Shown here piece by piece: positions 37,582-54,092 of a DNA stretch of 64,000 nucleotides (positions are counted from its first letter, which is position 1; each line of letters starts with the position of its first letter). The notes under the pieces are model-generated. The model had not been told where the DNA came from. It worked only from the letters and a program-made list of their open reading frames with translations, and did not search any database. The stretch comes from Alphaproteobacteria bacterium (GTDB lineage: Bacteria > Pseudomonadota > Alphaproteobacteria > G965222575). The DNA is taken from NCBI GenBank assembly GCA_965222575.1, contig OZ244958.1, positions 1,151,847-1,215,846 on the forward strand, written 5' to 3'. Both the position numbers and the translations under genes were made by a program.

Positions 37582-38280
37582 CTAATAATAGATAAGAAAG
37601 ATAACAAAGAATCCTCTTGTTCCTTCTTCTACAGAGACTTCATAAGAATCTTCTCCTCCCTCAAGAAGAAGTTTGCCAGAGAAAGTCAAATCTAAAAACC
37701 CACTGCTATCAAATTGCACAGAGGCAGGAGAAGGATTTTGTATGTCCGGAGAAGGCAACTCCATATCTTTTCCCCCTATTTGCTTAAAGGTAGTAGGTAA
37801 AAACTTGAGAATATTTTTATTTTCTTCATTTTTCAAAATACTTGGCTGAAACAACAAATTAATTTCCAAGTTTGGCTTTCCAGAGATCTGAATACGCACT
37901 ACATTTTCCAACACCTTTTCATCGAAGACAGAAAAAATCCCACGCTTTTCATCCTCTTTTTTTATCTCCTCTTCCTGCAGAAAATTCACGCGCTTAATCA
38001 TAAGTTTTCTGAGCCTTGGAACCACCTGCGTGTGAACAATAGAATCTGTTTCCCCAACATAAGGAAGCAATAAAGGCGCAATAAAAGAAGTTTTCCCCAC
38101 AACATGAACACTATCTCCCAGCGCAATACTGGGTGGACGAACAAAAATCTTTGGCACAATAAGGTGAGAAAAGGAGAACCCTAAACGAAAAGAAAGATCT
38201 TCCGCCTTTAACTCAGTAACTACTTTCACCCCTCCTAATAATAAGCATAATACAAAAATAACACCTACAACTTTTTTCAT
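37582..38280 (-). CDS. Secreted pilin-like protein (divergent DUF4402-like), downstream of the usher
   Basis: Signal peptide, IQISGKPN, LTFSGKLLL and a C-terminal hydrophobic strand ending in Y, shared with the paralogues. Strong GGAGGT upstream of ATG 38280. Confidence 0.55.
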   Translation of the reverse strand: MKKVVGVIFVLCLLLGGVKVVTELKAEDLSFRLGFSFSHLIVPKIFVRPPSIALGDSVHVVGKTSFIAPLLLPYVGETDSIVHTQVVPRLRKLMIKRVNFLQEEEIKKEDEKRGIFSVFDEKVLENVVRIQISGKPNLEINLLFQPSILKNEENKNILKFLPTTFKQIGGKDMELPSPDIQNPSPASVQFDSSGFLDLTFSGKLLLEGGEDSYEVSVEEGTRGFFVIFLIYY

Positions 38281-38326
38281 GTTACCTCCACCTCCGTCAC
38301 CATAACCGTCTTTCATAAAATAAGCC

Positions 38327-41107
38327 TTACTCTAACTCTACCACAATATCATCAAGCTCTATATAATCACTGTCCTCTGTGATTTCAAACTTATGGTCGT
38401 CAGAAAGAGACAACTCTTTACCATAGCGAGTTTGCCCTTTTTCCAAAGCAATAGTATACTGCCCTACAAGGACTTCAGATGAAAAAAGATAGCCCGATTC
38501 ATCCGTAAGAACACGCCATTTCGCTCCGTCATGACCAACAAGATAAAGCGCCATTCCCCTTGCTGGAACAAGCTGATTATCAGGCTTGCGAACCATGACC
38601 CTTGCTTCTACAGGAGCAACATACGATAAAGGTACAAAAACCTCCGTTACACTACCTCCCTTCGGCGCAACACCAATTCTTTGATAAACAGGCACAACAA
38701 AAGGATTCTCTATGCTACCAAGATCAACAGAGAGAACCGCTATACGATTAGCACTAACCCCCTTAATAACACCGCGCCCATCTCCCCCTGAGGCTTGTTG
38801 AAATTTAGAATACCCCCTCACACGAACTCCTTCCACAGGCTCTTCTCCAACGTCCTTCACCCTGTTCCTATTAGAGTCAATGAAAAATATAGGGACAATC
38901 ACACCATCTCCAATACCCCCAGACCCAGAAGCAACATAACGCCCTCGTCCCGTATGATACAACATAGTAGAGACACTAGCTGATATCGTAATGTTTTTAT
39001 TCTCATGAAACCTGACATTCATACTAGTCCTCAAATTTCCCGTCACCACAAAATTCGTACTAGCAGTAAAAGACACTTTCTTAGTTGTAGTATTATACGA
39101 AGGAGACAAGGACACAGCAAAATTTCTCACAAAATTCACATACACCCTAAAATCAATAACATCAACCTTGAACTTCTTCTCCTTCTCCGTATACTTATAA
39201 GGCACAGATATCCTTACAGAAGTGCTGATGCTCCGCGAAGCCCACCAAGAATACCCAGCAGAAAGTCTTCCTGAAAAGTCTTTATACTTCTGTTTATGGT
39301 CTCTACTGCTAGCAACCGTAGCCCCTAGCAATAGCCTTTTCATATATGCCGACCAGCTAACATTGAAACTTTCCTTATACTGAGCCCCATCCAACCTCCT
39401 AGGTTCTCGATAATGCCAGCGCCTGAAATTAGCAGATAAACTGGTTCTCCCTATGGGCAAACTCACATTGAAAAAACCGTTAAATTGCAGCTCCTCGTCA
39501 TTGTAGTAAGCACTTGAAGAAAGGTATCCCTTTTGAAAAATATTGCCTTGAAATGAGTATAAAATACGATTCATTCTACCAGATAAATAAAAGGCAACTG
39601 CAGTCTTAAGGGCATCTTCCTGCCTGTTCTTCAACAGCGAAACAGTTGTTGATGAATGAAATTTAGAAGTGCCTGTGCTGATGCCCATACTCAACGCCCA
39701 ATTTTGGGCATCCCTCTGCCCACTAGGAAAAATCCCGCCTAATAAAGAGAGCCTCACATTGTTTCCTAGTCCATAAACCAGTCTTACTACTGCCGTTGCT
39801 TTGTGCTGAAATCCTTCCTCTTTTTCCCCCTTTAGAAGTTCAAACATGGAATAGCCAGTATCCAAAACCGTAGCGTTAACAAACACTTTCCCTCTAATTG
39901 GTACAGCATAAGATAGCTCTACCCTCTCTATTTTCTCATCTATTTTCCCTTCATCTCCATAGGTTAAAACCTTCAGAATATTTTCCCCAGGTAAAAGAGG
40001 AATCTCATCAAATTCGTAGTAATAACCCTCCTCATCCTGCTTGATGTGCTCATCATCTAATGCAATAACAACAATTTCTTGCAGAACGCCATTATGATAG
40101 AATTCTAACTCTTCTCCCGGTTTCCCATAAGCTTTCAAAGAAGTCGTGTGGCCTTCCGCTCTGTAATCCATAGAGTGAGTAGAAACCTGAAACCCTATCC
40201 CTGATGAGCCTTGAAAGGCTAACGGAATACCTAAGGATGAAATATCCCCTAAACGGAGAGACCGTAACCCTTTGACCCCTAAAACATTACCATAGGGACT
40301 TTCACTCTGAGCAGTCCAAGAAAAATTACTCAAGCGCTTGTTGACATCAGGTGAAAAATTATACGCAAAATTTACACGTTGATTAAGACGAAATGCATCT
40401 GCAGCTATCCTTACAGATAAAGAACTATACAAGTCTTTTGAATCCTTATTCCACGAAAATGACTGGTTTAGAGACACAGATGGCAATGTTAAGCCAGCAT
40501 AGGAAGTCTCAGGATAAGAGAGATACTTATATTCTTTTGGGATACCCTGTGCCGAGAAAAAATTAGAAATTATTTGTTGGCGCGCTAACTCCTCCTCTAA
40601 AGGAAGATATTCCTCACTATCAATGGACAGAGTCCCAGAATCAAAAGACGCAACAATTTCTAAAGAGAACAAAACCTCCCACAAACCTTTCAAAGCATAG
40701 AGCATATTATCGTACTCAATAAAAGTATCGTCTACAAGATCATGGCGCTTCCCATCTTTTTCCAAGACCCCTTCTTTATAACGAATTGAGAAAGTATTCA
40801 CTTTACTCATGAACCATCCACTGATGATTCCTTTTTCTTCATCCCAGTCGGTGACACGAACACGCAAAAGGCTACTGAATTCCTCAAAAGGAAGATATAA
40901 AGGTTGGCCTGTCTCTATATCGGCATACCCTATAATAGGATCATCTAAGGCAATGGATTTCACCCTAAGAGTGAGAATTACTTCGTCCATTTCGGCTGCA
41001 GAGCACCCTAAAAATCCAAATAATCCTACTACTACAAAGAATTTCAAGAATCTAAAAATCATAATCCCTCTATCCCCATACATCATAAAAAAATGTTTCT
41101 CTATCAA
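38327..41107 (-). CDS. Fimbrial usher-like outer membrane protein (926 aa)
   Basis: Signal peptide; plug-like ELEFYHNGVL...YEFDEIPLLPGEN; long alternating beta-strand region; C-terminal FIDSNRNRVKD and carboxypeptidase-regulatory-like domains; adjacent to the chaperone. Confidence 0.75.
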   Translation of the reverse strand: MIEKHFFMMYGDRGIMIFRFLKFFVVVGLFGFLGCSAAEMDEVILTLRVKSIALDDPIIGYADIETGQPLYLPFEEFSSLLRVRVTDWDEEKGIISGWFMSKVNTFSIRYKEGVLEKDGKRHDLVDDTFIEYDNMLYALKGLWEVLFSLEIVASFDSGTLSIDSEEYLPLEEELARQQIISNFFSAQGIPKEYKYLSYPETSYAGLTLPSVSLNQSFSWNKDSKDLYSSLSVRIAADAFRLNQRVNFAYNFSPDVNKRLSNFSWTAQSESPYGNVLGVKGLRSLRLGDISSLGIPLAFQGSSGIGFQVSTHSMDYRAEGHTTSLKAYGKPGEELEFYHNGVLQEIVVIALDDEHIKQDEEGYYYEFDEIPLLPGENILKVLTYGDEGKIDEKIERVELSYAVPIRGKVFVNATVLDTGYSMFELLKGEKEEGFQHKATAVVRLVYGLGNNVRLSLLGGIFPSGQRDAQNWALSMGISTGTSKFHSSTTVSLLKNRQEDALKTAVAFYLSGRMNRILYSFQGNIFQKGYLSSSAYYNDEELQFNGFFNVSLPIGRTSLSANFRRWHYREPRRLDGAQYKESFNVSWSAYMKRLLLGATVASSRDHKQKYKDFSGRLSAGYSWWASRSISTSVRISVPYKYTEKEKKFKVDVIDFRVYVNFVRNFAVSLSPSYNTTTKKVSFTASTNFVVTGNLRTSMNVRFHENKNITISASVSTMLYHTGRGRYVASGSGGIGDGVIVPIFFIDSNRNRVKDVGEEPVEGVRVRGYSKFQQASGGDGRGVIKGVSANRIAVLSVDLGSIENPFVVPVYQRIGVAPKGGSVTEVFVPLSYVAPVEARVMVRKPDNQLVPARGMALYLVGHDGAKWRVLTDESGYLFSSEVLVGQYTIALEKGQTRYGKELSLSDDHKFEITEDSDYIELDDIVVELE

Positions 41108-41998
41108 TTATTGTTGCATTTGATTTTCATAGTACCATTGTGTTCCATATTTCGGAGCATCACTGATATGAACTTTATCAAAAACCTTTATCTTGTTGCT
41201 GGTATCATCATCTCTTGTGTATTCAACCTCTATGGTATTAGGGTCAAAAGTTGTGAAGTCATCGGACTCCATGACATTAATAAAGATCATGCGACGTTCT
41301 ATTTCACTATAAACGGCGGCGCCATTGCGTAGTCCTATGAGTTTTCGTCCTTTATCGGTTTTAGCATACACCTCTAGTTTTCCGATAGCGGATCCATTTC
41401 CTTCTCTATTCAGGACAAAAGAGACGAGTTTTTTGTCTCCATCATAGGACACATCAGAGATTTTTGCGCCCCCTGTGACATTGCCATAGCGTATGATAAG
41501 AGGGATAGACACAGCGATTAACATTTCTACGCCTAAGCTATTATCGTCTTTGTTATCGTCTTTGGAAAACTTGACGGAGGTAGGTCTAGGAACGAAATTG
41601 ACATAGACACGATATTCCCCATGTCCAAAGTCTTTAGGCGGACGGAACAAGAAGCGAAAGACTTGGCTTTTGTGGGATTGCAAGATGGTTTTTCTAGGGC
41701 TATAGCGCAGGTATTTGAAGAAAGGAAAATCCTCCAAAGATTCTCCAGCTTTGACCAGAACTTGGTGATTACCATAAGCATCCTGACGCATAACGGAGAA
41801 CTGAATGTCATAGATTTTAGCAGAGGAAGAAGAGTTTGTTAAAGTGACACTTCCTGTTTTTTTGCCATCTGCAATCATGATTCTCGTGGGATAGATACTT
41901 GTGTAAGCTTGAGCATTAGCAAAGAGGAAAACACAAGATGCAACTAGCGTTTTTACACATAAAGTTCGGATTATTTTCTTCATTTCCTTTGATTTCAT
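41108..41998 (-). CDS. Periplasmic pilus assembly chaperone (PapD/EcpB-like)
   Basis: Signal peptide followed by IYPTRIMI, VTLTN, YLRYSPRK..L...QVFR, GEYR, VSIPLIIRYG, REGNGS. Confidence 0.85.
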   Translation of the reverse strand: MKSKEMKKIIRTLCVKTLVASCVFLFANAQAYTSIYPTRIMIADGKKTGSVTLTNSSSSAKIYDIQFSVMRQDAYGNHQVLVKAGESLEDFPFFKYLRYSPRKTILQSHKSQVFRFLFRPPKDFGHGEYRVYVNFVPRPTSVKFSKDDNKDDNSLGVEMLIAVSIPLIIRYGNVTGGAKISDVSYDGDKKLVSFVLNREGNGSAIGKLEVYAKTDKGRKLIGLRNGAAVYSEIERRMIFINVMESDDFTTFDPNTIEVEYTRDDDTSNKIKVFDKVHISDAPKYGTQWYYENQMQQ

Positions 41999-42056: not shown

Positions 42057-42698
42057 TTAATCATAAACAACACGCACTAGAACATTAGCTATTACATTAG
42101 CTATTGTGTTATAGGTATTAGCCTTTGCGTTTGCTTCCACAGTGACAATGCCGCCTAGGTGTAAATAGGCTTTGCCATTTGCTCCCAAAGTGGCATAAAC
42201 CACTGTATCTTCTTCAGTTTCATCTAATAGTTCTGCTTCTCTTGTGGAGGTGGAATAGAAAGGAACGCGGGTACTTTCCTGTAGCTCTCCCGCAGTACTC
42301 ATAGACAGAGGGCCAATCTCAAAAGAGACACCATCACTCTCTGTGGTATCAGAGACGAGGAATTCTATACCAACGATGGCATCTTGGCGTCCTAGAATTT
42401 CGATAAGTGCTTCATTGAATATCCCTTCAACACCATACACGTTATAGAGTTCTCCTAAGGTGCCATTAGGTTTTAGTTCTAAGGTGGCTTCTAGGGTTTT
42501 ATCTTCGATGACAATGTTACTCCCTAGCTCCATTTCTTCGACTAGGGATAGGTTGATATAGCCAACTTCAACGGTTGCCTTTACATTGACTTCCGCTAAC
42601 GGCTTGACTGCTATTGCACTTGGTATTGACAAAATATTGGTAGCCTCCCAAAAGAAGAATCCTAGAGAGAAGGCTAATAAACAACGTGTACAGATCAT
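42057..42698 (-). CDS. DUF4402-like pilin subunit
   Basis: Signal peptide; EMELG, LHLGGIVTV, C-terminal VLVRVVYD. Confidence 0.7.
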   Translation of the reverse strand: MICTRCLLAFSLGFFFWEATNILSIPSAIAVKPLAEVNVKATVEVGYINLSLVEEMELGSNIVIEDKTLEATLELKPNGTLGELYNVYGVEGIFNEALIEILGRQDAIVGIEFLVSDTTESDGVSFEIGPLSMSTAGELQESTRVPFYSTSTREAELLDETEEDTVVYATLGANGKAYLHLGGIVTVEANAKANTYNTIANVIANVLVRVVYD

Positions 42699-42842: not shown

Positions 42843-43982
42843 TTACCTCATATTGCCGATAATTGTCTCTTTTGAGCGCATAGTTTTGCTTAAGACATTA
42901 CTGGTCATATCGAAGGCTTGGTTTCTGTAGTTGGTGAGTTTTTGGAGTGAGATCATTTCCAGTTGTGAATCATTATTCATGCCGTCGCTGATACCTTTGA
43001 GGCTTTGGATAGTGGAGTCGAATTTTGCCTGAGTGATTTCAGTCCCTGCGGCTGGGACATCGTGTCCTTGTGCTGATAGGTATTGTCGGACGTGTTCTGG
43101 CATGAGGGCTTTTTCGTCCGCATCGCCGTCGGGTCTAGCGGCGCGCATATCAGACATATACTGGTTAATTTTCGCTAGTTCCAAGTTTCGTTTTTTCATA
43201 GACTGAACAACGGAGTGGATTTTCAAGTCTAAGAGTTTGACTCGATCCAGTTGGGTTCTCATGAGGAATTCCGTGACGTCTTCGCTACTGATTCCGGTAT
43301 GAGGGATACCTTGTGATAGGGTGTGTTCCAGAGCGGCGTTTTGGAGTTTTCCTAGGGCTTCGATTCCCGTACCAACATCTTTGACATAAATGCCTCTAGC
43401 CTCTAAGTCTGATTTGTAGGCTACGACGGCGCGTTCGACAGCAAGGGTGCTCTCTTGCTTGAGTAGGGCTGGCAAGTTTTCTTTTTGTGTTAAGAGTGCC
43501 TCTTCTTTAGCTTTAGCAGCGAGGAAGACTTTTTCTTCGGGAGCAGACATTTTGACTCGTTGTTGGAGTAATCCAAGGAATGTAACGGCCCATTTATTAC
43601 CGGCGGTTTTTTCTGCTGCTCTCATGGTTGTTAGCCTAGAGTCTTTCTCCTTTGCGCTTATGGTATCGTCAAAGAGGAATTCAATTTTGCCTCTGAGACC
43701 TGTGAAGGTTACTTGGGATTCTTTTAAGGTCCAGAAGTTAGAGCTTTCCAATTTTGTCAGGACCAATCCTTTAGAATTGGATCTCGCGAGTGAAGATGTT
43801 AGCACCCTTTTTACTTCGTCTTGGAAAGCTGTCTGTTTTGCTTCTTTATCTTTAGTGGCGGCAGCGAGAGACTCGTCAAGAGTAGTGCGTTTTGCGTTAG
43901 CAGAAGTAGTGGCTTCATCAAGAATTCTCTTTGCTTCGCCTGATAGCGTTGTGGTGCTAGGGAGTTGCGTTATTTCTGGCAT
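42843..43982 (-). CDS. Bsp22/EspA/SseB-like type III secretion filament/tip protein with a long N-terminal extension
   Basis: The C-terminal ~140 aa (Q.DRVKLLD...RNLELAKIN; FDSTIQSLKG..D.MNNDSQLEMISLQKLTNYRNQAFDMTSN...IIGNMR) follow the Bordetella Bsp22 pattern as I recall it. No Sec signal peptide. Confidence 0.72.
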   Translation of the reverse strand: MPEITQLPSTTTLSGEAKRILDEATTSANAKRTTLDESLAAATKDKEAKQTAFQDEVKRVLTSSLARSNSKGLVLTKLESSNFWTLKESQVTFTGLRGKIEFLFDDTISAKEKDSRLTTMRAAEKTAGNKWAVTFLGLLQQRVKMSAPEEKVFLAAKAKEEALLTQKENLPALLKQESTLAVERAVVAYKSDLEARGIYVKDVGTGIEALGKLQNAALEHTLSQGIPHTGISSEDVTEFLMRTQLDRVKLLDLKIHSVVQSMKKRNLELAKINQYMSDMRAARPDGDADEKALMPEHVRQYLSAQGHDVPAAGTEITQAKFDSTIQSLKGISDGMNNDSQLEMISLQKLTNYRNQAFDMTSNVLSKTMRSKETIIGNMR

Positions 43983-43988
43983 AGGATT

Positions 43989-44363
43989 TTAGAGTTTGAT
44001 TTTATTACGAGATTTTTTCTTTTTGTCTTTTTTACTGTCTTGCATAAAAGCCGTGAGGAGTTTGTTATAGGACTTTCTATCGGCCATCAGTTCTTGTCTG
44101 AATTGTTTTCTCTCTGGGTGAGAGAGGAATTGTTTTTGGGAGTCTTCTCCATAGCCTTGTTCTTCAAAGAACTGCTGCATTTCCGCTGTTGAGATTTCTG
44201 TATCTAAAATCATCTTTGCTTGGAGAGAGTGTGTAGCAGCGGAGGTATTAAGAGCGGATTCTATCCATTGAGAGACTTTTTCTTTGCGTTGGTCGTTACT
44301 AAGGTCTTGAAATAAAGGACTTGTCATAGGAGGGAGAAATAATTGAGTTTGAAAATGAGACAA
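43989..44363 (-). CDS. Small helical protein, candidate chaperone of the Bsp22-like protein
   Basis: Ends 6 bp before the Bsp22-like gene; 124 aa, helical, basic tail. Function inferred from position only. Confidence 0.45.
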   Translation of the reverse strand: MSHFQTQLFLPPMTSPLFQDLSNDQRKEKVSQWIESALNTSAATHSLQAKMILDTEISTAEMQQFFEEQGYGEDSQKQFLSHPERKQFRQELMADRKSYNKLLTAFMQDSKKDKKKKSRNKIKL

Positions 44364-47631: not shown

Positions 47632-48336
47632 TTAGGGAAAGCTCGCAGTAAGCATTACAGTAGCTATTGTTGTCGACGTCTTAGGATAGGTCGCACCAGC
47701 CGTCAAGCTAAAGACACCACCAAAATAAACATTCGCAGTCTCTGTCGAGGCAGCGAGTTCAATAAAGGCTGTGTTGTTGGTGGTATTATCGACAAGAGCA
47801 TTCGACTTAACTGAGATATCGAGTATAGACTTTTGATTTTGAGTTTTAGCTTCATCCCGAAAGTTCGACGCACTAGCATCAGCCAGCCTTAGTTGTTTCA
47901 CCGCAAAGGTGATACCATCATTCGAATCTGTATCGGCTACTGTAAAAGTCAGTTGAATTAGCGTGTCTGGTTGTCCCTCAACTTTAAATGAACCGACTGT
48001 GAGATCGCTCGCTTCTAATGGATCACCTACTTCTGTACTATGAACAGATGTAGTTGCCGCATTAACAGCACCAAGCGTTGCGGTTCCGGTAGAAGTAATA
48101 CCAACAGTTACTTCTGTGGCGGTATTTATCGCTAGCATTGCAAAGTCTCCTACTTCAATATCCGCAATCTTCTCTACATACAGCGGTTTCCATATAGGTC
48201 CTACACTTATATCAGCACTCGCATCTGTGGCAGCATTCAGGCGCCCACCCCACCAATGGGCACTTCCTAATATGCCTACCATTATTACAACTGCAAACAA
48301 GACAGATAAAGATTTTTGTATCATTTCTCTTCTCAT
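47632..48336 (-). CDS. DUF4402-like pilin subunit
   Basis: Signal peptide; VGPIWKPLYV, IEVGDF, GSFKVEGQP, VYFGGVFSL, IATVMLTASFP. Confidence 0.72.
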   Translation of the reverse strand: MRREMIQKSLSVLFAVVIMVGILGSAHWWGGRLNAATDASADISVGPIWKPLYVEKIADIEVGDFAMLAINTATEVTVGITSTGTATLGAVNAATTSVHSTEVGDPLEASDLTVGSFKVEGQPDTLIQLTFTVADTDSNDGITFAVKQLRLADASASNFRDEAKTQNQKSILDISVKSNALVDNTTNNTAFIELAASTETANVYFGGVFSLTAGATYPKTSTTIATVMLTASFP

Positions 48337-48367: not shown

Positions 48368-49069
48368 TTAATCGTCATAGGCGACATTCAACGTTATAGT
48401 TGCAACTGTCAAAAACTCCTTAGGAAAGGCCGCATGGCTAGCCGCCGTTATGGTAAAGACACCACCAAAAGAGACGATCGTAGTCTCATCAGCAGGGAGG
48501 TCAAGCCAGGCGTCAGTAGTAGCACCACTCGCCACGGCAAAAGCGTTTATATTGTTTGCTCGCGTACCCGTATTCGACCCAGGACGTAAAGCCCCATGGG
48601 CAGTGGAAGAGGAATTGACAAGAGAGGCAGTACCTTCAAGGTCTAGCCCGAGTATTGCAAAAGAGACTCCATCATTACCGCTGCTGTCGACTATAGAAAA
48701 AGACAGCTTTACTGGCCTGTTTGGCTCTCCCCCAATTGTAAAACTACCGGCTGTCACCGCCGCATCTCCTAGTACAACACCAGTCCCAACAGCATCCGCC
48801 GAAATACTTGTGACAGTACCAAGAATTCCACCGTAAGTAACTGTTACTAATGAGTTGGTAGACTTTGAGGCTATTGCAAACTCTCCTACAGTAATATTAA
48901 CACCCGTATCTACAGTAAGCGGCACCCATATAGGTCCTATCTTCGCATCCGCAGTCGCCGGCGCAGCAGCATGATTGGTTTGATGACTCATCACAATAAC
49001 AGCCATTACCCCTGCCGCAATAAAAAATACACTATTCTGAAAAATCTTCTCTGTTACGTTTCTCATCAC
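48368..49069 (-). CDS. DUF4402-like pilin subunit
   Basis: Signal peptide; KIGPIWVPLTV, ITVGEF, AGSFTIGGEP, VSFGGVFTI, ITLNVAYDD. Confidence 0.75.
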   Translation of the reverse strand: MMRNVTEKIFQNSVFFIAAGVMAVIVMSHQTNHAAAPATADAKIGPIWVPLTVDTGVNITVGEFAIASKSTNSLVTVTYGGILGTVTSISADAVGTGVVLGDAAVTAGSFTIGGEPNRPVKLSFSIVDSSGNDGVSFAILGLDLEGTASLVNSSSTAHGALRPGSNTGTRANNINAFAVASGATTDAWLDLPADETTIVSFGGVFTITAASHAAFPKEFLTVATITLNVAYDD

Positions 49070-49201: not shown

Positions 49202-50053
49202 CTAACTAGTACCATACGTAATGGTGAAAACAATCTTCCCAAGTGCAAAACGCCAATTCGCTCCCTCCAACTTGCTCTTCTCTATATGAGGCTCTAAATA
49301 ATCGTTAGTGAATTCAATGTCTAGCCCAAACTTAATGACAGCCCTCTCACTGGTAGCGCTAGGTCTAATGACAATGGCATCACTGTCGACTATCCTTCCT
49401 CCGTCAGAGAAAGACATTGTCGCCTCTTTCACATCACTACCATTGACCACGAACTCCCCTTCAACAGCATGCAAGGACAAGGAGTGAAGGGTAACGGGGA
49501 GGGTTACAGATGCAGAAGACTGTTTAATCTTCGGGCTTCTGAGAAACTGCGCATTGAGGTTCACTGGACGGGCGGCATCCGTAAATAAGGTCATGGTTGG
49601 CCTACTAGTAGAAGAGTGGGCGTTTGAGCCGCTTACAATCTGTGGCACGTGAGTGGTGCTTGTAGTGAGATCATCACCATCATGATCTATGAGATTAGAG
49701 TCCATCTTACCCGTCTCCGCATCAATCGTAATTCTTAACGCTTCTGCCGGATTCCATATAGTAAAGTCTCCAAGAGAAAAGTTTCCCTTAATATCCCAAA
49801 GCAATACTTCTGCCACATCAATAGACTCGTCTAGTATCCCAAAAGTGACTTTTCCTACGGTCATAGCCATATTTCCAGATAGCTTATTCACATCCGCACT
49901 AGGAATCTCCATCTTGCGTTCCATGTATTGGCGTAACGCGTAAGAACGATTAGAAGAGAGAAACACACTCCCTAAGACAACAATACCCGTTACTAAAACA
50001 GAAAGTACAATGGAAGAATATCTTTTCATTTTCATTTTCATTTTCATTTTCAT
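49202..50053 (-). CDS. Pilin-like secreted protein (divergent paralogue)
   Basis: (MK)5 start plus signal peptide; FSLGDF, IKFGLDI, LGKIVFTITY. Confidence 0.6.
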   Translation of the reverse strand: MKMKMKMKMKRYSSIVLSVLVTGIVVLGSVFLSSNRSYALRQYMERKMEIPSADVNKLSGNMAMTVGKVTFGILDESIDVAEVLLWDIKGNFSLGDFTIWNPAEALRITIDAETGKMDSNLIDHDGDDLTTSTTHVPQIVSGSNAHSSTSRPTMTLFTDAARPVNLNAQFLRSPKIKQSSASVTLPVTLHSLSLHAVEGEFVVNGSDVKEATMSFSDGGRIVDSDAIVIRPSATSERAVIKFGLDIEFTNDYLEPHIEKSKLEGANWRFALGKIVFTITYGTS

Positions 50054-50083: not shown

Positions 50084-50896
50084 CTACCTCTTAAGGATAC
50101 CCGGGTCGGGCAGGGGCGGGTCGTAATGCGGGCTATCAGGATCATCTACCCCAGTAAGGAAGCCCGTGTACAGAACATCTATCAAGAGATAACCAACCAC
50201 TTCATTATGCTTCATCCCATTGATATAGCCTTTCGCAAACTTCGAGCCATCTATCATCAATTTTCCGCCAAATGTCAACGTTTGGGGGGTACGGCCATCA
50301 GTCTCTGTCCTCATTTTCATGTAATGCGGCTTCTCACCTAAGTTGTCTATGTCCTGTTCGCTTAAAACCTCATTAACATCAGTTACTATACCGCGCTTGT
50401 ATTTTTGGTACCCAATTGTAACTTCAGATAAGGTGAAGATGTCGGAATAGGGCAGAAATCTCACGGCTACCGAAAAGTAATTATGATCAATGTTGCCTAG
50501 CCCTAAGCCCGTTAGTGTTATTTCACCAGCACTCCACTCGTCATCTGTCTCCACCGCTCCATCATAGGTAATAGTAGCATCACCACTTCCGTCCTCGAGA
50601 AGGACTATGGTGACAGAATGGTTGAAATAGGTGAACTCTTCCGAAGGCAGGGAAAGGGTGACCTCTGCATTAATCTTTGTATCAATGTTGTAATCACCGC
50701 TACCGAGAACCTCATTCAACTCAAACCCCCCAAAATTCAGCGGTTTCAAAATCGCCACCTCTATATACGGTTGTGGGTTTATGGTGATAGGCGCATAGGC
50801 TACCGCACCGATTACATATCCTTGATACAATAGCCCCCCTGTAAGGACAATTCCTACAACACAGGAAGACAAAAAGCAGTTTTTTAAGTATGTCAT
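50084..50896 (-). CDS. DUF4402-like pilin subunit
   Basis: Signal peptide; PLNFGGF, AGEITLTG, LTFGGKL, VGYLLIDVLY followed by a Pro/Asp tail. Confidence 0.68.
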   Translation of the reverse strand: MTYLKNCFLSSCVVGIVLTGGLLYQGYVIGAVAYAPITINPQPYIEVAILKPLNFGGFELNEVLGSGDYNIDTKINAEVTLSLPSEEFTYFNHSVTIVLLEDGSGDATITYDGAVETDDEWSAGEITLTGLGLGNIDHNYFSVAVRFLPYSDIFTLSEVTIGYQKYKRGIVTDVNEVLSEQDIDNLGEKPHYMKMRTETDGRTPQTLTFGGKLMIDGSKFAKGYINGMKHNEVVGYLLIDVLYTGFLTGVDDPDSPHYDPPLPDPGILKR

Positions 50897-51724
50897 TTAA
50901 CGCACCACTGTAAGTTTGAGATAACCAAGTGTTATTTTACCCCTCTTAGGTATTAGGGCCGCCGCATCAGCAAGATAAAGTCTTCCTCCTACCGCAATCT
51001 CCATCTCCGTAGCATCAGCATGAATAGCTACATTAGAGAGGGAAGCCTTTTGAGCTGTATCTGTAAGCGGCAAGGAAGCGTTTTCGTTGGATATAGGCCC
51101 GCTGCTGCTGTCACGAAGCCAATAATGAACATTAAGAAGCTTCAAGCCCGTTTTCTCACCATCCCAGTCAGGAGCAAGAAGAGGATTGTTGTGGACGTCG
51201 AAGACAAGGGGTGCTGCGAGCTCTGTTCCTGCTTTCGCTAAGACACTGTTGGGAACATGCACTATCTCAACTTCAACCTTTGTGAGTGTACTCCCCCCCG
51301 GCAATCCGCCTATCTTAAAGAGTCCATACTCCGCACCATTGATTCTTGAGACAGCAGGATCATTACTCGCGGTTCGAGATTCGTAGTATGATGCAGAAAG
51401 GGCATTGACATTTACCGCGGGCGTGTCACTACTCGTGATAACATCCACCTCAAAGACAAGGGGAGCATTTTTGGTAAAGAAAAGATTTCGCAGAATAAAA
51501 GTCCCAAAACTCAAGCCTTGTTCTGCTGAAAGCGTAATGGCGGAGTTTATATGAACTGTGCCGACAGCTGCTCTCACCGTACTACTTTTATCCTTCGTAT
51601 TCATATAAAAGTAGTTACGCAAGCTCTCTTCGTCGGTACTCCATGAGAACACTAGCTGGGGCAGGGTACACACTAGCCCTACGAAAAGAGAAAGAGAAAT
51701 AAGACGGAGGCTACGCATTTTCAT
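50897..51724 (-). CDS. DUF4402-like pilin subunit
   Basis: Signal peptide; GLSFGTF, YGLFKIGG, IAVGGRL, LGYLKLTVVR. Confidence 0.68.
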   Translation of the reverse strand: MKMRSLRLISLSLFVGLVCTLPQLVFSWSTDEESLRNYFYMNTKDKSSTVRAAVGTVHINSAITLSAEQGLSFGTFILRNLFFTKNAPLVFEVDVITSSDTPAVNVNALSASYYESRTASNDPAVSRINGAEYGLFKIGGLPGGSTLTKVEVEIVHVPNSVLAKAGTELAAPLVFDVHNNPLLAPDWDGEKTGLKLLNVHYWLRDSSSGPISNENASLPLTDTAQKASLSNVAIHADATEMEIAVGGRLYLADAAALIPKRGKITLGYLKLTVVR

Positions 51725-51736: not shown

Positions 51737-53239
51737 TTAGTTATATGCTACTTTTATTATCAAAAATCCTAATGATTGTGGGGCTCCCAAGAGCAATTTT
51801 ACCATTTTAGCATCGAGCGGATCGGCGCTTCTAACACTATCGAAATGCAATGACGCATGGACAAGAAACTTTATTCTATACAACTCCGTATTTGGAACTT
51901 TTTTGATAGTATAAGTTGAGAACGGACCTAAATCGCCCTCTGACCTTGGGTTGAACCTTTTCTTTGGCTCGTATATTGGGGCACCATTATTAGAATGACC
52001 AACAACAATTGGATTTCTGCCGAGGATACTTCCTACCAGTACCCTTTTTTCCACTATTCGGTAATAAGTCCGAGGTAAAAATTTCCCAGGTGTTACCTTG
52101 TTAATTTGCATCCTCCCCCACCCCAGAACGGTTCGATCGTAACGATTCCAACCACGTACAAAGAGGGGAGTCCAAACTTGCTGCCTCGTCTTAGGGTCTG
52201 TACGCCACCCATAGCCGTATCTCTGGTAATACTCCGCTTTAAACTCTACTGCTAGTAGTTCCCAGATCTCGAGGGAGGGGTTGGTTCTTGGTCGACAGAC
52301 GGCGCCTTCGAGGGATGTGTCACAGAATGAGCCGTCCGCTACAATACGTTGTCCTTGGGAATTTTTAGGAAAAGGATTTGATTCTATAGCAGGAATTATC
52401 TCGCCGGGCAGAAACACAAAATTAGCGGCTTCCCCTACATCTTTACAGTCTTTGCCGGCTTTGCAGGCTTTGATTATGTCATAGCCAGACTTAACGTAGA
52501 GTTGTGACACGGGGGATTTCACGAACCATCCCCGCCCGTTGTCTGTAAGTCCTATATTGCCGGACGGTCCTCCAACCACTTTATTGCTATCCTCCTCAGC
52601 AACAACTGGCGCCTGCGGACGAACCGTGGGGGTGAGGTCTATCTTCTTCGTAACTCCCCGCTGATCATCTTCACTCCCTTCCCTAGGCGTCACTTTCATA
52701 ACTTCCCTCTGGGATTTGTCCACAAGAAGGACTAGCTCTCGTGGCCTATTCGTCAGCACAATAAATTCCCCTGGGTGCCCTAGATCCTCAGGATCGGGGT
52801 AGGTTACATTCGAAGATGGATTATCGTGGGAGTCTCCACTTTCAGACAAACGTCGTTCTGCTCTATCGGTTGTTACTTCGCTTGCATAAATAGGGTCAAG
52901 GATGTTAAAAGACCCAAAATGCAGGTGTTTTACGATAGCAATCGATACACTATCCGTGTATGTAACAGGACCTGCCTGTACTCCCATAAAGTTGTCACTG
53001 TTGAGCGCTGGGAACTGATAAGCCTTTTTCCTTATAATGATTCTACCCTTTTTATCTAAGCGGATGTTACCATCCTTATCTAAGGGTTCACCATATATAT
53101 TGTAATTACCCCTCGGCAGCTCCCCCCGAAAGGCATAAGACTTTTCTCCTAAGATGAGGAACATAAATCCTGCAAGGACTAAAAGAGAAATCAGGTATTC
53201 TTTTATGAGAAATCTTTTCATTTTCATTTTCATTTTCAT
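51737..53239 (-). CDS. 500-aa pilin-like protein with a large inserted domain, candidate tip adhesin
   Basis: (MK)4 start plus signal peptide; HLHFGSF and PGEFIV; Cys-containing insert; C-terminal LGFLIIKVAYN. Confidence 0.62.
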   Translation of the reverse strand: MKMKMKMKRFLIKEYLISLLVLAGFMFLILGEKSYAFRGELPRGNYNIYGEPLDKDGNIRLDKKGRIIIRKKAYQFPALNSDNFMGVQAGPVTYTDSVSIAIVKHLHFGSFNILDPIYASEVTTDRAERRLSESGDSHDNPSSNVTYPDPEDLGHPGEFIVLTNRPRELVLLVDKSQREVMKVTPREGSEDDQRGVTKKIDLTPTVRPQAPVVAEEDSNKVVGGPSGNIGLTDNGRGWFVKSPVSQLYVKSGYDIIKACKAGKDCKDVGEAANFVFLPGEIIPAIESNPFPKNSQGQRIVADGSFCDTSLEGAVCRPRTNPSLEIWELLAVEFKAEYYQRYGYGWRTDPKTRQQVWTPLFVRGWNRYDRTVLGWGRMQINKVTPGKFLPRTYYRIVEKRVLVGSILGRNPIVVGHSNNGAPIYEPKKRFNPRSEGDLGPFSTYTIKKVPNTELYRIKFLVHASLHFDSVRSADPLDAKMVKLLLGAPQSLGFLIIKVAYN

Positions 53240-53384
53240 TTTCTTTTTTCTGCTTTGTTAACTACCTTTTAATTTTTTAACCCTAAGTGCAGGGTCTTAA
53301 TCCTTCTTGGAACGCTAACATATTTTTTAGGGAAGTGTCAATGGTTTTTTGAAAATTTTACCAGCGTATTTTTCACGCACACCC

Positions 53385-54092
53385 TTAATTATAAATAATG
53401 GTAACCGTGACCTTTGCTAAGTCTTCCGAAGGGGGAGGAAGAGTGGTGCTATCTTCAATGGTGAGCGTGCCGCCAAAGGAAAAGGCCAACGTTCCGGGAG
53501 ATGGGGAATCGATACCGGGCAAGTGGATGGTGAAAGTCGAAGGCAATTGCGTCATCTTATCAATCACTGCACTATCGACTAGAAATCCGCCATTAAAGCC
53601 ACCAACACCCGGCTCATAAGGAGGAAGCGCAATCTCGTTACCCATGATATCTGTAGTAGAATCGCCTTCGATTGCGGCTATCAACCCGTCCCCAATCCTA
53701 AAGTCATACCCTGGTAGTTCATCTCGCACCTTCAACTCTACAGTGATACCACGCGCCCACTGCCCCTCAATAACAAACTTGCCCGCCTTAATAGCGCTTT
53801 TGTTTAACCCATTGTGATTCTTAGCCTTATAGGGCAACTCCTCGCCCAAAGCATTAATCTCAACCACCGTTTCAGACCTGCGCTCTATCACGCGAAACGC
53901 TCCGAATTGTAAATGCTCCACGCCGTACACAGCAAGAGGGATATAAATAGGACCAATCTTCGCATCTGTTTCAGCAGGGGCCGCCCCTTCACTCTTCATA
54001 AACGGAAGGGAAAATACAAAACAGAACAGAACAACACACAATGAACTGAGGCTTTGCCTCATAAGGGGGGGTATCTCTACAGACATTTTCAT
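53385..54092 (-). CDS. DUF4402-like pilin subunit, first gene of the array
   Basis: KIGPIYIPLAV, LQFGAF, AGKFVIEG, FSFGGTLTI, VTVTIIYN. Start estimated. Confidence 0.75.
   Translation of the reverse strand: MKMSVEIPPLMRQSLSSLCVVLFCFVFSLPFMKSEGAAPAETDAKIGPIYIPLAVYGVEHLQFGAFRVIERRSETVVEINALGEELPYKAKNHNGLNKSAIKAGKFVIEGQWARGITVELKVRDELPGYDFRIGDGLIAAIEGDSTTDIMGNEIALPPYEPGVGGFNGGFLVDSAVIDKMTQLPSTFTIHLPGIDSPSPGTLAFSFGGTLTIEDSTTLPPPSEDLAKVTVTIIYN

What the first reader, a model, noticed from the sequence alone, without database searches (positions are those of the whole stretch)
37582..54092. One chaperone-usher pair serving about 12 highly diverged DUF4402-like pilins
Seen: 12 co-oriented signal-peptide ORFs share a motif skeleton (L-x-F/V-G-x-F near the N-terminus, a G-x-F-x-I-x-G strand, F/I-GG-x-L, and a terminal alternating hydrophobic strand often ending in Y/F). 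Three also share (K/S)-(I/V)-GPI-(W/Y)-x-PL-x-V. Only one chaperone and one usher-like gene are present. Established: chaperone-usher operons normally carry a few subunits, and the DUF4402-associated type is poorly characterised. Inference: tandem expansion gives a combinatorial or switchable pilus repertoire for host adhesion or immune evasion, which is striking in an otherwise reduced genome.
Basis: partly seen in the sequence, partly recalled or inferred. Interest (0 to 1): 0.82.

Follow-up and report, generated by a model that had tools for sequence, protein, structure and literature searches.

The report
Expanded pilin cluster, one chaperone-usher pair
A small (1.2 Mb) alphaproteobacterial genome has a single, very diverged chaperone-usher export machine next to at least 8 and probably 12 fibre-subunit genes, more than any related locus examined, which suggests a large investment in a variable cell surface.

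Summary
On the minus strand of 37582-54092 lie 12 co-oriented ORFs with signal-peptide-like N-termini, plus one chaperone and one usher. These are the only chaperone and usher of this kind in the 1,215,846-bp genome.

- **Usher:** the 926-aa protein matches no Pfam Usher model. Its AlphaFold model (pLDDT 84.6) matches FimD/PapC ushers (Foldseek E 5.9e-30; VIA Z 23.4).
- **Chaperone:** its family is PapD-like (PapD_N in 44 of 63 members).
- **Binding:** a complex prediction passes (ipSAE 0.80, best control 0.00). A chaperone strand lies in parallel register with the subunit's C-terminal strand, as in donor-strand complementation.
- **Subunits:** 8 of 12 are DUF4402-like by sequence, one has moderate support and three have weak support.
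- **Relatives:** homologous loci are widespread (240 confirmed stretches) but carry only 1-4 such genes.
- **Beyond the finding:** a second dispersed family of 7 DUF4402-like genes lies elsewhere in the genome. Two ORFs without signal peptides are embedded in the cluster.

The proposed role in adhesion or immune evasion is untested. The supporting hints are faster divergence of subunit genes between samples and repeat tracts at three start codons. I found no invertible switch and no RNA data. Verdict: a real, unusual expansion of an uncharacterised, archaic-like chaperone-usher type.

The parts
38327..41107 (-). Usher (926 aa; the database copy P0001 is 911 aa). Predicted outer-membrane barrel with an inserted middle domain and C-terminal beta-sandwich domains.
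   Evidence: AlphaFold2 on a 53-sequence alignment: pLDDT 84.6, pTM 0.69. Foldseek against PDB: the top 18 listed rows are all FimD/PapC, best 9fw9_D at E 5.9e-30. VIA: FimD Z 23.4 (626 aligned, rmsd 11.3); FimD translocation domain 3ohn_A Z 22.0 (374 aligned, rmsd 4.4); the best non-usher barrel reaches Z 16.3. No Pfam Usher hit.
41108..41998 (-). PapD-like periplasmic chaperone (296 aa).
   Evidence: PapD_N E 0.008, 16.6 bits, below the 23-bit cut-off. 24-26% identical to chaperones next to homologous ushers. PapD_N at E<=0.01 in 44 of 63 family members. Predicted to bind the subunit 53385-54092. It is the only such gene in the genome.
53385..54092 (-). Subunit (235 aa from the probable start; the ORF runs to 54188). 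Carries the GPI motif. This is the subunit that was modelled and docked.
   Evidence: DUF4402-family HMM, genome-wide E 1.7e-4. jackhmmer from it reaches 112 family members. Model pLDDT 67.7: beta-sandwich with a low-confidence N-terminal stretch. Complex with the chaperone: ipSAE 0.80 against 0.00 for the best control.
51737..53239 (-). Candidate subunit or adhesin (500 aa) with a roughly 280-aa insert between the middle and C-terminal motif blocks. Moderate support.
   Evidence: 3 of 4 strict motifs. hhalign against the family profile: probability 15%, E 0.0017, co-linear over the N and middle blocks. One orthologue, P0003, at 60% identity by BLASTP. Not significant with the family HMM.
50897..51724 (-). 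Subunit (275 aa).
   Evidence: Family HMM genome-wide E 8.5e-5. N-block score ranks 1 of 2716.
50084..50896 (-). Subunit (270 aa) with a proline-rich C-terminal tail.
   Evidence: Family HMM genome-wide E 2.7e-5.
49202..50053 (-). Candidate subunit (283 aa). Weak support. Its start lies in an (ATGAAA)n tract.
   Evidence: Signal-peptide-like N-terminus. 2 of 4 strict motifs. No HMM or hhalign support. Atlas search uninformative.
48368..49069 (-). Subunit (233 aa). Carries the GPI motif.
   Evidence: BLASTP against 47632-48336 E 5e-24. Family HMM genome-wide E 5.8e-5.
47632..48336 (-). Subunit (234 aa). Carries the GPI motif.
   Evidence: BLASTP. Family HMM genome-wide E 1.1e-3.
46785..47588 (-). 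Subunit (267 aa). Its start lies in a 9-nt x3 repeat.
   Evidence: BLASTP against 47632-48336 E 5e-5. Family HMM E 0.035. Middle-block score ranks 2 of 2716.
46093..46788 (-). Subunit (231 aa), the best DUF4402 match of the cluster.
   Evidence: Family HMM genome-wide E 4.3e-7. Pfam DUF4402 E 0.055. hhalign probability 92.9%.
44943..46070 (-). Candidate subunit (375 aa) with a Gly/Pro-rich stretch. Weak support.
   Evidence: Signal-peptide-like N-terminus. N-block ranks 17 of 2716 at the expected position. Otherwise not significant.
42057..42698 (-). Subunit (213 aa) directly upstream of the chaperone, the usual place of the DUF4402 gene in relatives.
   Evidence: Family HMM genome-wide E 9.7e-5. 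BLASTP against 47632-48336 E 1.6e-7. C-block ranks 2 of 2716.
37582..38316 (-). Candidate subunit (244 aa; probable start at the 13th codon) downstream of the usher. By recall, this is where Csu-type operons place their tip subunit. Weak support.
   Evidence: Signal-peptide-like N-terminus. Middle block ranks 11 and C block ranks 73 of 2716, both at co-linear positions. Family HMM not significant.
42843..44363 (-). Two embedded ORFs (379 aa and 124 aa) without signal peptides. They are probably not subunits and their function is unknown.
   Evidence: No signal-peptide-like segment. No Pfam or NCBIfam family. No PDB sequence match for the 379-aa ORF.
54160..54188 (-). Promoter-like site (TTGACA, 17 nt, TATTGT) upstream of the first subunit gene.
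   Evidence: Consensus scan, 10 of 12 matches. The scan as a whole is not enriched over shuffles (35 found against 30.2 expected), so this is only a candidate.
37470..37503 (-). Terminator-like hairpin (14 pairs followed by a T-rich tail) after the last gene.
   Evidence: Consensus scan.

Best explanation
This is a working chaperone-usher secretion and assembly locus of an uncharacterised type. Its subunits belong to the DUF4402 family, which is distantly related to the SCPU subunits of archaic pili. Its usher has the FimD/PapC fold but falls outside Pfam's Usher family.

Proposed mechanism, step by step:
1. Subunits cross the inner membrane by Sec. This is inferred from signal-peptide-like N-termini.
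2. The single PapD-like chaperone (41108-41998) captures each subunit by laying its strand at residues 152-166 in parallel against the subunit's C-terminal strand (donor-strand complementation). This is predicted, not measured.
3. The complex docks on the single usher (38327-41107), where subunits are joined by donor-strand exchange of their N-terminal extensions and threaded outside. This is inferred from homology and was not tested.

The unusual part is the number of clients. At least 8 and probably 12 very diverged subunit genes lie in one co-oriented cluster, most likely expanded within this lineage. They probably serve as alternative or mixed fibre subunits and adhesins.
For: Usher:
- The model has pLDDT 84.6.
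- Foldseek's top 18 listed rows are all FimD/PapC, best E 5.9e-30.
- VIA's top 15 entries are all ushers with Z 20.1-23.4; other barrels reach at most 16.3.

Chaperone:
- PapD_N at E<=0.01 in 44 of 63 family members, best 9.7e-10.

Binding:
- ipSAE was 0.80, 0.78 and 0.84 in three runs; the best of 3 controls was 0.00.
- This mark was reached by 58 of 80 solved complexes and 2 of 110 mismatched pairs. These counts hold only roughly here because my own alignments were used.
- The runs agree in at least 83% of contacts. The partner's pLDDT is at least 69.
- The tightest contacts are chaperone 157-164 with subunit 226-233 in parallel register. Chaperone residues 33-39, including the conserved R39, are in the interface.

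Conserved triad in relatives:
- DUF4402 E 1.8e-23, PapD_N E 3.5e-6 and a protein of about 920 aa.
- The chaperone was found in 75 of 88 loci. DUF4402-like genes were found in 71 of the 80 loci.

Subunits:
- An HMM built only from other organisms' DUF4402 genes puts 7 cluster ORFs at the top of 2716 genome ORFs (E 4e-7 to 1e-3). An eighth scores E 0.035 and is linked to the others by BLASTP at 5e-5.

Expansion:
- Relatives have 1-4 such genes per locus and 1-7 matches per genome in 18 of 300 sampled class members.
- Monophyly of the 8 window rows is not rejected (p-AU 0.879).

One machine only.
Against: - No cluster ORF reaches Pfam's cut-off for DUF4402 (best 14.6 bits against 25.2). The chaperone is below PapD_N's cut-off (16.6 against 23).
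- Four of the 12 ORFs are not significant in any sequence test.
- The subunit model is of middling confidence (pLDDT 67.7). Its fold matches are generic beta-sandwiches: no Foldseek E<=0.001, and best VIA Z 7.4.
- The usher's N-terminal domain (about residues 41-164) was not aligned to FimD's.
- Chaperone-subunit complexes of other chaperone-usher systems are solved, so the pass may partly reflect likeness to them.
- Polymerisation, expression and surface fibres were not shown.
- The monophyly test involves very long branches, which can attract each other.
Confidence: 0.8

Rival explanations
1. Only the 8 sequence-supported ORFs are clients of the chaperone-usher pair. The other four (37582-38316, 44943-46070, 49202-50053, 51737-53239) would be unrelated secreted proteins whose short motifs resemble the family by chance or by shared beta-strand composition.
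For: - None of the four is significant with the family HMM (E 2.6-5.1 genome-wide for three; the fourth is not listed at E<=10).
- jackhmmer from each finds only itself.
- hhalign probabilities are 1.3-4.7%.
- The atlas look-ups of two of them gave no DUF4402-like neighbour.
Against: - All four have signal-peptide-like N-termini, are co-oriented and sit tightly packed among proven members.
- 51737-53239 has 3 of 4 strict motifs, a rate of 8 in 761 genome-wide, and a co-linear hhalign match.
- 44943-46070 ranks 17 and 37582-38316 ranks 11 of 2716 in block tests, at the expected positions.
- The supported members are themselves so diverged that misses are expected. For example, 46093-46788 finds none of its paralogues by jackhmmer.
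Confidence: 0.3
2. The machine exports the subunits, but they do not form pili. They would stay as a surface coat or capsule-like layer, or be released. By recall, protein U of the Myxococcus spore coat and the Caf1 capsule are handled this way by chaperone-usher systems. The many paralogues would then be coat variants.
For: - The DUF4402 profile is related to the SCPU (spore coat protein U) profile only over the C-terminal strand (hhalign probability 93.5%, E 2.3e-7, 32 columns).
- No polymerisation test was run.
- The subunits (213-500 aa) are longer than the relatives' (median 182 aa).
Against: - The modelled subunit has a low-confidence N-terminal stretch ahead of its first strand (pLDDT about 47-53 for residues 11-40).
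- The family consensus has an alternating hydrophobic N-terminal segment. Both features are what a donor strand looks like.
- Coats of this kind are, by recall, also polymers joined by donor-strand exchange. This rival therefore differs in morphology rather than in mechanism.
Confidence: 0.15
3. The cluster is a decaying remnant. Most paralogues would be silent or drifting genes in a shrinking genome, without present function.
For: - Branches are very long: 2.0-2.5 changes per column for five window rows, against a median of 0.81.
- The dispersed second family shows dN/dS near 1, and one of its copies is split.
- No RNA data could be had.
Against: - All 12 ORFs, the chaperone and the usher are intact, with no internal stops.
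- The 500-aa ORF has an orthologue at 60% identity, with conserved ends and motif blocks, in another assembly.
- The chaperone keeps the family's nearly invariant residues and is predicted to bind a subunit.
- The usher-chaperone segment is nearly identical between two samples: 11 differences in 7020 bases.
Confidence: 0.05

Closest known systems
Archaic (sigma-type) chaperone-usher pili such as Csu of Acinetobacter baumannii and CupE of Pseudomonas aeruginosa, with SCPU-domain subunits. I saw only search listings and abstracts of PMC4654587, PMC9452303 and PMC10104325; the gene order of Csu is recalled.
   Same: - One chaperone, one usher and several small beta-sandwich subunits.
- The subunit family profile shares the C-terminal strand motif with SCPU (hhalign probability 93.5%).
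- One gene follows the usher, as the tip subunit does in Csu (recalled).
   Different: - No SCPU match in this genome.
- The subunits are DUF4402-like.
- The usher is outside Pfam Usher (0 hits here; 2 of 53 relatives at E<=0.01) and ends in SdrD_B-like and CarboxypepD_reg-like domains (50 and 49 of 53).
- There are 8-12 subunit genes, where Csu has about four (recalled).
Classical type 1 and P pili (FimC/FimD, PapD/PapC) of Escherichia coli.
   Same: - The usher fold matches from the barrel to the C-terminal domains: model residues 198-924 against FimD 131-833.
- The chaperone is PapD_N-like, with the conserved N-terminal arginine in the predicted interface.
- The chaperone strand pairs in parallel with the subunit's last strand.
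   Different: - Sequence identity to FimD/PapC is 10-14%.
- A profile of the usher family finds no usher in the PDB by sequence.
- The N-terminal domain was not aligned.
- The subunits are unrelated in sequence to Fim/Pap pilins.
DUF4402 - PapD-like chaperone - ~920-aa protein loci of other bacteria (Micavibrio, Pseudoalteromonas, Psychromonas, Desulfobulbus, Lujinxingia, and many MAGs). These are annotated but, as far as my searches show, undescribed.
   Same: The usher (17-20% identity) and the chaperone (17-27%) are homologous, the gene order is the same, and the subunit family is the same.
   Different: - These loci carry 1-4 subunit genes, against 8-12 here.
- Their subunits pass Pfam's DUF4402 cut-off (for example 84.1 bits). 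None does here.
- The subunits here are longer (213-500 aa against a median of 182).
The Synechocystis slr1667/slr1668 'novel chaperone-usher system' (bioRxiv 10.1101/130278; I read passages only).
   Same: [quoted passage not shown]
   Different: I could not test whether slr1667 is DUF4402-like. Its usher is reported as 30% identical to FimD and unlinked. This is a lead only.

Membership tests
Chaperone-usher pathway (functional class) | Outer-membrane usher: a large beta-barrel with an internal plug domain and C-terminal beta-sandwich domains. | tested here: met
   Foldseek gives FimD at E 5.9e-30 and its top 18 listed rows are ushers. VIA gives Z 23.4, and Z 22.0 at rmsd 4.4 over 374 residues for the FimD translocation domain. 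DSSP of the model shows a run of long strands over 210-727 interrupted by a small-strand domain at 283-398. This rests on a predicted structure.
Chaperone-usher pathway (functional class) | Usher N-terminal domain that receives chaperone-subunit complexes. | tested here: inconclusive
   The model has a confident domain at about residues 41-164. The alignments to FimD/PapC begin at model residue 198-209. I did not fold or search this domain alone.
Chaperone-usher pathway (functional class) | Periplasmic two-domain PapD-like chaperone. | tested here: met
   The protein itself scores PapD_N E 0.008, below the cut-off. Its family scores PapD_N at E<=0.01 in 44 of 63 members, best 9.7e-10. The family profile finds PapD, FimC and CupB2 in the PDB only weakly (E 0.07-0.79).
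Chaperone-usher pathway (functional class) | The chaperone completes the subunit's fold with a donated strand lying parallel to the subunit's last strand. | tested here: met
   This is a prediction only. ipSAE was 0.80 against 0.00 for the best of 3 controls. Chaperone 157-164 pairs with subunit 226-233 in parallel register. Only one subunit (53385-54092) was tested.
Chaperone-usher pathway (functional class) | Subunits have an incomplete Ig-like fold. | tested here: inconclusive
   The model is a beta-sandwich at pLDDT 67.7. Foldseek finds no match at E<=0.001. The best VIA score is Z 7.4, which the tool's own notes say is common for generic sandwiches.
Chaperone-usher pathway (functional class) | Subunits polymerise by donor-strand exchange. 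| not tested
Pfam DUF4402 (PF14352) | Score at or above the gathering cut-off (25.2 bits). | tested here: not met
   The best scores are 14.6 bits (46093-46788) and 14.1 bits (53385-54188). The other 10 ORFs have no hit at E<=1. The genome-wide search has no match at E<=10.
Pfam DUF4402 (PF14352) | Homology to proteins that do pass the cut-off, shown with a profile built from them. | tested here: met
   Met for 8 of 12. Seven score E 4e-7 to 1e-3 among 2716 genome ORFs with an HMM grown from a DUF4402 protein (84.1 bits) of a relative's locus. An eighth scores E 0.035 and has a BLASTP link. It is not met for 37582-38316, 44943-46070, 49202-50053 and 51737-53239.
Pfam Usher (PF00577) | Match to the family model. 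| tested here: not met
   No hit at E<=1 for the protein. No hit at E<=10 in the genome. Only 2 of 53 homologues hit at E<=0.01, best 6e-4.
Archaic chaperone-usher pili with SCPU subunits (PF05229) | SCPU-domain subunits. | tested here: not met
   G000 has no SCPU match, with no candidates in the first look. Profile-profile similarity of the DUF4402-like family to SCPU is limited to the last 32 columns.

The most novel reading that the evidence does not exclude
One chaperone-usher machine of a previously unclassified clade services about 19 clients in a 1.2-Mb host-associated bacterium. Twelve are clustered. Seven more are dispersed 'cassette-like' genes with near-identical ends and variable cores (G000:C1 150096-150845, 271564-273149, 388510-396401, 520156-520932). 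Together they would form a surface-variation system built on donor-strand assembly. By recall, the comparable multigene surface families of small-genome intracellular bacteria use a different export route. The rapid between-sample divergence of subunit genes and the repeat tracts at start codons would be its population-level and expression-level variation mechanisms.
Probability: 0.25. Interest if true: 0.8.

Novelty: new variant of a known kind. Interest (0 to 1): 0.62.

Why it matters
1. It points to a widespread chaperone-usher clade that usher-based classifications relying on Pfam Usher would miss. I confirmed 240 stretches across Alpha- and Gammaproteobacteria, Desulfobacterota, Acidobacteriota and others. 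Neither 'DUF4402' nor 'PF14352' occurs in the 8.4 million papers searched.

2. Within that clade, this genome is the extreme case among those I examined. It has 8-12 clustered subunit genes, plus 7 dispersed ones, for one chaperone and one usher. The cluster alone takes about 16.5 kb, or 1.4% of a 1.2-Mb genome. A shrinking genome that keeps and diversifies such a family marks its surface fibres as central to its way of life. The genome also encodes a type III secretion needle protein, which fits a host-associated life.

3. The locus offers a compact natural test of how one chaperone and one usher recognise many clients that share only about 10-35% identity.

Tried and rejected
**Searches that gave nothing**
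- Pfam and NCBIfam on all 17 ORFs of the stretch gave only sub-threshold hits.
- A profile of the five clearest paralogues recruited no further genome ORF even at E<=10. jackhmmer from 8 of the 12 found only the query itself.
- The search for homologous proteins with the usher found only itself and one protein at E 1.9e-17.
- Sequence searches of the PDB gave no usher for the usher profile, nothing convincing for the subunit profile, and nothing for the embedded 379-aa ORF.
- Atlas look-ups of 51737-53239 and 49202-50053 scored 0.83 and 0.78, below the level at which hits mean anything. The ricin/beta-trefoil neighbours of the former are a lead only.
- Two metagenome scans, with the 500-aa ORF and with the usher, found no relative.
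- No RNA holder is listed for the stretch, so expression per gene could not be examined.
- Paper searches for DUF4402 and PF14352 returned 0 papers. Searches combining chaperone-usher with carboxypeptidase regulatory-like domains or with spore coat protein U showed no paper on this type in their listings. Supplementary files were not consulted and may hold relevant tables.

**Ideas tested and not supported**
- An invertible promoter switch: no short-range inverted repeats flank the intergenic regions. All 16 inverted pairs are imperfect, and 15 are more than 1 kb apart.
- The embedded 379-aa ORF as a type III secretion needle or tip protein. This was my recollection of its C-terminus. The needle family model hits another gene in the genome and not this ORF.

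**Tools and runs that failed**
- A first MAFFT-based iteration timed out and was replaced by jackhmmer.

**Limits**
- dN/dS among the clustered paralogues was not attempted, because they share at most 36% identity and synonymous sites are saturated.

Full report
**What is there**

The window is the last 64 kb of a single-contig genome of 1,215,846 bp, estimated 97.6% complete. Every relative on offer is only 'same class'.

Between 37582 and 54188 all long ORFs lie on the minus strand. In order of transcription they are:
- ten ORFs from 53385-54188 down to 44943-46070;
- a 579-bp gap;
- two ORFs of 124 and 379 aa (43989-44363, 42843-43982);
- 42057-42698;
- a 296-aa ORF (41108-41998);
- a 926-aa ORF (38327-41107);
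- 37582-38316.

Most neighbours are 0-60 bp apart, and one pair overlaps by 4 bp. A 14-pair hairpin with a T-rich tail follows the last gene (37503-37470). A TTGACA-17-TATTGT site lies just upstream of the first (54188-54160). The promoter scan as a whole is not enriched over shuffles.

**Check of the observation**

A simple hydrophobicity and charge heuristic finds a signal-peptide-like N-terminus in all 12 candidate subunits, the 296-aa protein and the 926-aa protein. It finds none in the two embedded ORFs or in 54252-55262. The background is 177 of 761 ORFs of at least 200 aa.

Each occurs in 5-12% of the 761 ORFs. At least three of the four occur in 8 ORFs, and 6 of these are in the cluster. 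The GPI motif occurs in exactly three ORFs of the genome, the ones named. The skeleton is therefore real and far above chance. In half of the ORFs, however, it is present only in degenerate form.

**The usher**

Pfam gives no Usher, PapC_N or PapC_C hit for the 926-aa protein at E<=1. The genome has no PF00577 match at E<=10. A profile of the protein and four homologues finds no usher in the PDB by sequence.

Homologues of about 900-960 aa occur in 4 of 40 sampled relatives. They also occur in 240 confirmed stretches of the species-representative genome collection. The titles of the best 80 name Micavibrio, Rickettsiales and Rhodospirillales MAGs, Pseudoalteromonas, Psychromonas, Vibrio, Desulfobulbus, Lujinxingia, Acidobacteriota and others.

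With 53 of them aligned, AlphaFold2 gives a confident model: pLDDT 84.6, pTM 0.69.
- Foldseek's first 18 listed rows are all FimD or PapC, best E 5.9e-30 over 783 columns.
- In the VIA re-alignment the top 15 entries are all ushers, with Z 20.1-23.4. The FimD translocation domain alone gives Z 22.0 at rmsd 4.4 over 374 residues. The best other barrels reach Z 16.3.
- The aligned range is model residues 198-924. The confident N-terminal domain (about 41-164) was not aligned, so its equivalence to the usher N-terminal domain is open.
- Of the 53 family members, only 2 touch Pfam Usher (best E 6e-4). Fifty have an SdrD_B-like domain and 49 a CarboxypepD_reg-like C-terminal domain.

The protein is an usher by fold, in a family that current sequence models do not label as such.

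**The chaperone**

The 296-aa protein scores PapD_N at E 0.008, below the cut-off. It is 24-26% identical to the genes that precede the homologous ushers in three relatives. One of those passes the PapD_N cut-off (E 3.5e-6).

A chaperone of this family was found in 75 of 88 loci examined. In a 63-member alignment, 44 members hit PapD_N at E<=0.01.

**The subunits**

In relatives, the gene next to the chaperone is a bona fide DUF4402 protein (E 1.8e-23 and 2.5e-9). Starting from one of these, jackhmmer over the ORFs of 88 loci collected 160 proteins. It found 1-4 per locus, in 71 of the 80 loci, with a median length of 182 aa.

The resulting HMM contains no sequence of this genome. It ranks seven cluster ORFs first among 2716 genome ORFs:

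| ORF | Genome-wide E |
|---|---|
| 46093-46788 | 4.3e-7 |
| 50084-50896 | 2.7e-5 |
| 48368-49069 | 5.8e-5 |
| 50897-51724 | 8.5e-5 |
| 42057-42698 | 9.7e-5 |
| 53385-54188 | 1.7e-4 |
| 47632-48336 | 1.1e-3 |

46785-47588 follows at E 0.035 and is tied to 47632-48336 by BLASTP (E 5e-5). That makes 8 of 12.

The other four are not significant.
- 51737-53239 has three of the four strict motifs and a co-linear but weak hhalign match (probability 15%, E 0.0017). An exhaustive search of 1.84 billion representatives found a single relative for it, P0003. P0003 is 60% identical by BLASTP, with conserved signal peptide, motif blocks and C-terminus. It comes from a 4607-bp contig that I could not fetch.
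- 44943-46070 and 37582-38316 rank 17 and 11 of 2716 in tests with sub-profiles of single motif blocks, at the expected positions.
- 49202-50053 does not stand out in those tests.

None of the 12 reaches Pfam's own cut-off. I therefore call them DUF4402-like, not DUF4402 members.

**Fold and mechanism**

I modelled 53385-54092 with a 103-row alignment. The model is a beta-sandwich of eight strands at pLDDT 67.7, with a low-confidence stretch ahead of the first strand. Its structural neighbours are generic sandwiches:
- Foldseek gives nothing at E<=0.001, and a PapG pilin domain appears at rank 5 with E 0.013.
- VIA's best is Z 7.4, followed by Gram-positive pilins and archaeal cannulae.

The fold is therefore compatible with a pilin but not diagnostic of one.

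The controlled complex prediction is more telling. Chaperone residues 33-296 with subunit residues 37-235 gave ipSAE 0.80, 0.78 and 0.84, against 0.00 for the best of three controls. That mark was reached by 58 of 80 solved complexes and 2 of 110 mismatched pairs. The counts hold only roughly because my own alignments were used. The runs share at least 83% of contacts, and the partner's pLDDT is at least 69.

The best-defined contacts run 157:226, 158:227, 160:229, 162:231, 164:233. This places a chaperone strand with alternating hydrophobic residues (152-166) in parallel with the subunit's C-terminal strand. Chaperone residues 33-39, which hold the family's conserved arginine, also touch the subunit. 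This is the geometry of donor-strand complementation.

Chaperone-subunit complexes of other chaperone-usher systems are solved, so the pass shows likeness to them and not that this pair binds in a cell. Polymerisation by donor-strand exchange is inferred, not tested.

**Relation to known types**

The DUF4402-like profile matches a profile of 12 SCPU proteins with hhalign probability 93.5% (E 2.3e-7). The match covers only the last 32 columns, the 'G-x-Y...V-x-V-x-Y' strand. The genome has no SCPU match.

The system is thus nearest to the archaic chaperone-usher class in its subunits, and to FimD/PapC in usher fold. It fails the sequence definitions of both.

Neither 'DUF4402' nor 'PF14352' occurs in the paper library. 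[quoted passage not shown] I could not test whether that is the same type.

**How unusual is the number?**

Relatives have at most 4 family members within 7 kb of the usher. In a sample of 300 other genomes of the class, 18 have matches to the family profile, with 1-7 matches each. G000 has 9 matches in 8 ORFs, but the profile contains those rows, so that figure is not independent.

The genome has one usher and one chaperone.

A tree of the 103 rows is poorly resolved and the window rows have very long branches. The AU test does not reject their monophyly: p-AU is 0.879, and the constrained tree is 40 log-likelihood units better than the quick free search. This fits expansion within the lineage, although long-branch attraction could give the same result.

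**A second family**

The same external HMM also picks up weakly (E 0.007-0.18) a set of genes elsewhere in the genome. These are six intact genes and one split gene of about 240 aa, at G000:C1 150096, 271564, 272412, 388510, 391703, 395663-396401 and 520156. They are 56-73% identical to the copy at 150096 by tblastn, and 43-67% in the two pieces of the split gene.

Evidence that they are DUF4402-like:
- Their profile matches the DUF4402 profile over the N-terminal half (probability 70%, E 3.9e-5), signal peptide included.
- They fill ranks 2, 3, 5, 8 and 9 of the N-block test.

Their ends are conserved and their cores are variable. Synonymous divergence is 0.13 in the first 95 codons against 0.62 in the middle, with dN/dS near 1 throughout. 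The low synonymous divergence of the first part would fit gene conversion of that part. I rate 'DUF4402-like clients of the same machine' at about 60-70% for this family. It was not tested by structure or docking.

**Variation**

Three public runs hold the stretch (shares 0.98, 0.77 and 0.27), and none is on record as RNA. I laid their contigs at 80% likeness. Only 22 of 336 pieces are listed, so the figures below for the second run (X2) are partial.

| Segment | Content | Differences |
|---|---|---|
| 37407-44426 | usher, chaperone and neighbours | 11 in 7020 bases |
| 47605-49070 | subunit genes | 5 in 1466 |
| 45497-46926 | subunit genes | 15 plus 15 gap letters in 1415 |
| 50150-51153 | subunit genes | 17 plus 18 gap letters in 1010 |
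| 49041-50015 | subunit genes | 33 plus 21 gap letters in 986 |

Low-depth contigs carry replaced cores. One example is in the first run, where 399 other letters stand between 48487 and 48872, at depth 4.5.

These are metagenome contigs, and two of the runs come from one study. The pattern is a hint that subunit genes diverge faster than the machine, not a measurement.

Other observations bearing on switching:
- No short-range inverted repeats suggest an invertible switch.
- Three genes begin inside short in-frame repeats. These are (ATGAAA)n of 5.2 and 5.7 copies at 50023-50053 and 53215-53248, and a 9-nt x3 repeat at 47566-47592. The tool notes that reads seem cut at the two hexamer tracts. 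Whether their copy number varies is unknown.

**Context**

The genome encodes a type III secretion needle protein (PF09392, E 3.3e-15), next to an FHIPEP export-gate gene, and two secretins. This fits a host-associated life. Host adhesion as the role of the fibres remains an inference.

**Limits**
- Only one subunit was modelled and docked.
- No expression data exist here.
- Paper supplements were not consulted.

**Verdict**

The chaperone-usher reading is well supported, at about 0.8-0.9. '12' is probably right, but only 8 are demonstrated. The adaptive story is open.

It is a new variant of a known kind of system: an uncharacterised chaperone-usher clade with an exceptional expansion of clients in a small genome.

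Noticed in passing
G000:C1 150096-150845, 271564-272289, 272412-273149, 388510-389244, 391703-392407, 395663-396401 (split), 520156-520932 (outside the window): A dispersed family of about 240-aa signal-peptide proteins with DUF4402-like N-terminal, middle and C-terminal motifs. The copies are 56-73% identical to the copy at 150096 (43-67% in the two pieces of the split gene). Their ends are conserved and their cores are variable. dS is 0.13 in the first 95 codons against 0.62 in the middle, and dN/dS is near 1. They may be further clients of the single chaperone-usher pair.
   Followed up: partly
window 36795-37480: A tandem array of about 22 copies of a roughly 32-nt unit, directly downstream of the cluster's terminator-like hairpin. 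Each unit holds a Shine-Dalgarno-like AAGGAGG on the plus strand and a small hairpin on the minus strand. Contigs of two runs join 36846 to 37209, skipping 362 bases. This is either a length variant or an assembly collapse.
   Followed up: no
window 44398-44630: Three copies of a 67-nt C-rich repeat lie in the 579-bp gap between the embedded 124-aa ORF and the subunit gene 44943-46070. Their function is unknown.
   Followed up: no
window 50023-50053, 53215-53248, 47566-47592: In-frame repeats lie at the start codons of three subunit genes. They are (ATGAAA)n, read as MKMKMK..., at 49202-50053 and 51737-53239, and a 9-nt x3 repeat at 46785-47588. The tool notes that reads seem cut at the two hexamer tracts. 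They could be contingency tracts that alter the length of the signal peptide's N-region or the choice of start codon.
   Followed up: partly
window 42843-43982 and 43989-44363: Two ORFs (379 and 124 aa) without signal peptides are embedded in the cluster, with no family in Pfam, NCBIfam or the PDB. The C-terminus of the larger one reminded me of type III secretion needle or tip proteins (recalled). The needle family model does not hit it.
   Followed up: partly
G000:C1 240836-241036, 242428-244413, 403577-404056, 622072-622569 (outside the window): The genome has a type III secretion needle gene (PF09392, E 3.3e-15) near an FHIPEP gene, and two secretin genes. This suggests an injectisome and a host-associated life.
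   Followed up: no
window 55374-56633 and 56650-57843: Two tandem, nearly identical genes for a histidine-decarboxylase-like PLP enzyme. The second scores NF002748 at E 3.4e-62, below the equivalog cut-off. The first has a different, proline-rich N-terminus.
   Followed up: no
window 40001-54000: GC skew of the plus strand is much weaker over the cluster (-0.07 to -0.17, and +0.07 at 42-44 kb) than in most of the rest of the window. There, minus-strand genes sit at about -0.17 to -0.55, although two bins at 8-12 kb are also near zero. This could reflect the cluster's odd amino-acid composition or a more recent arrival.
   Followed up: no
P0003 (476 aa, from a 4607-bp ENA contig): This is the only relative of the 500-aa ORF among 1.84 billion representatives. 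It is 60% identical, with several indels in the insert region. A sister organism therefore exists in public assemblies.
   Followed up: partly
window 36675-36749: Four copies of a 15-nt repeat (GACCAAAAGGCCTTC) lie between the RadC-like gene (35925-36662) and the 32-nt array.
   Followed up: no
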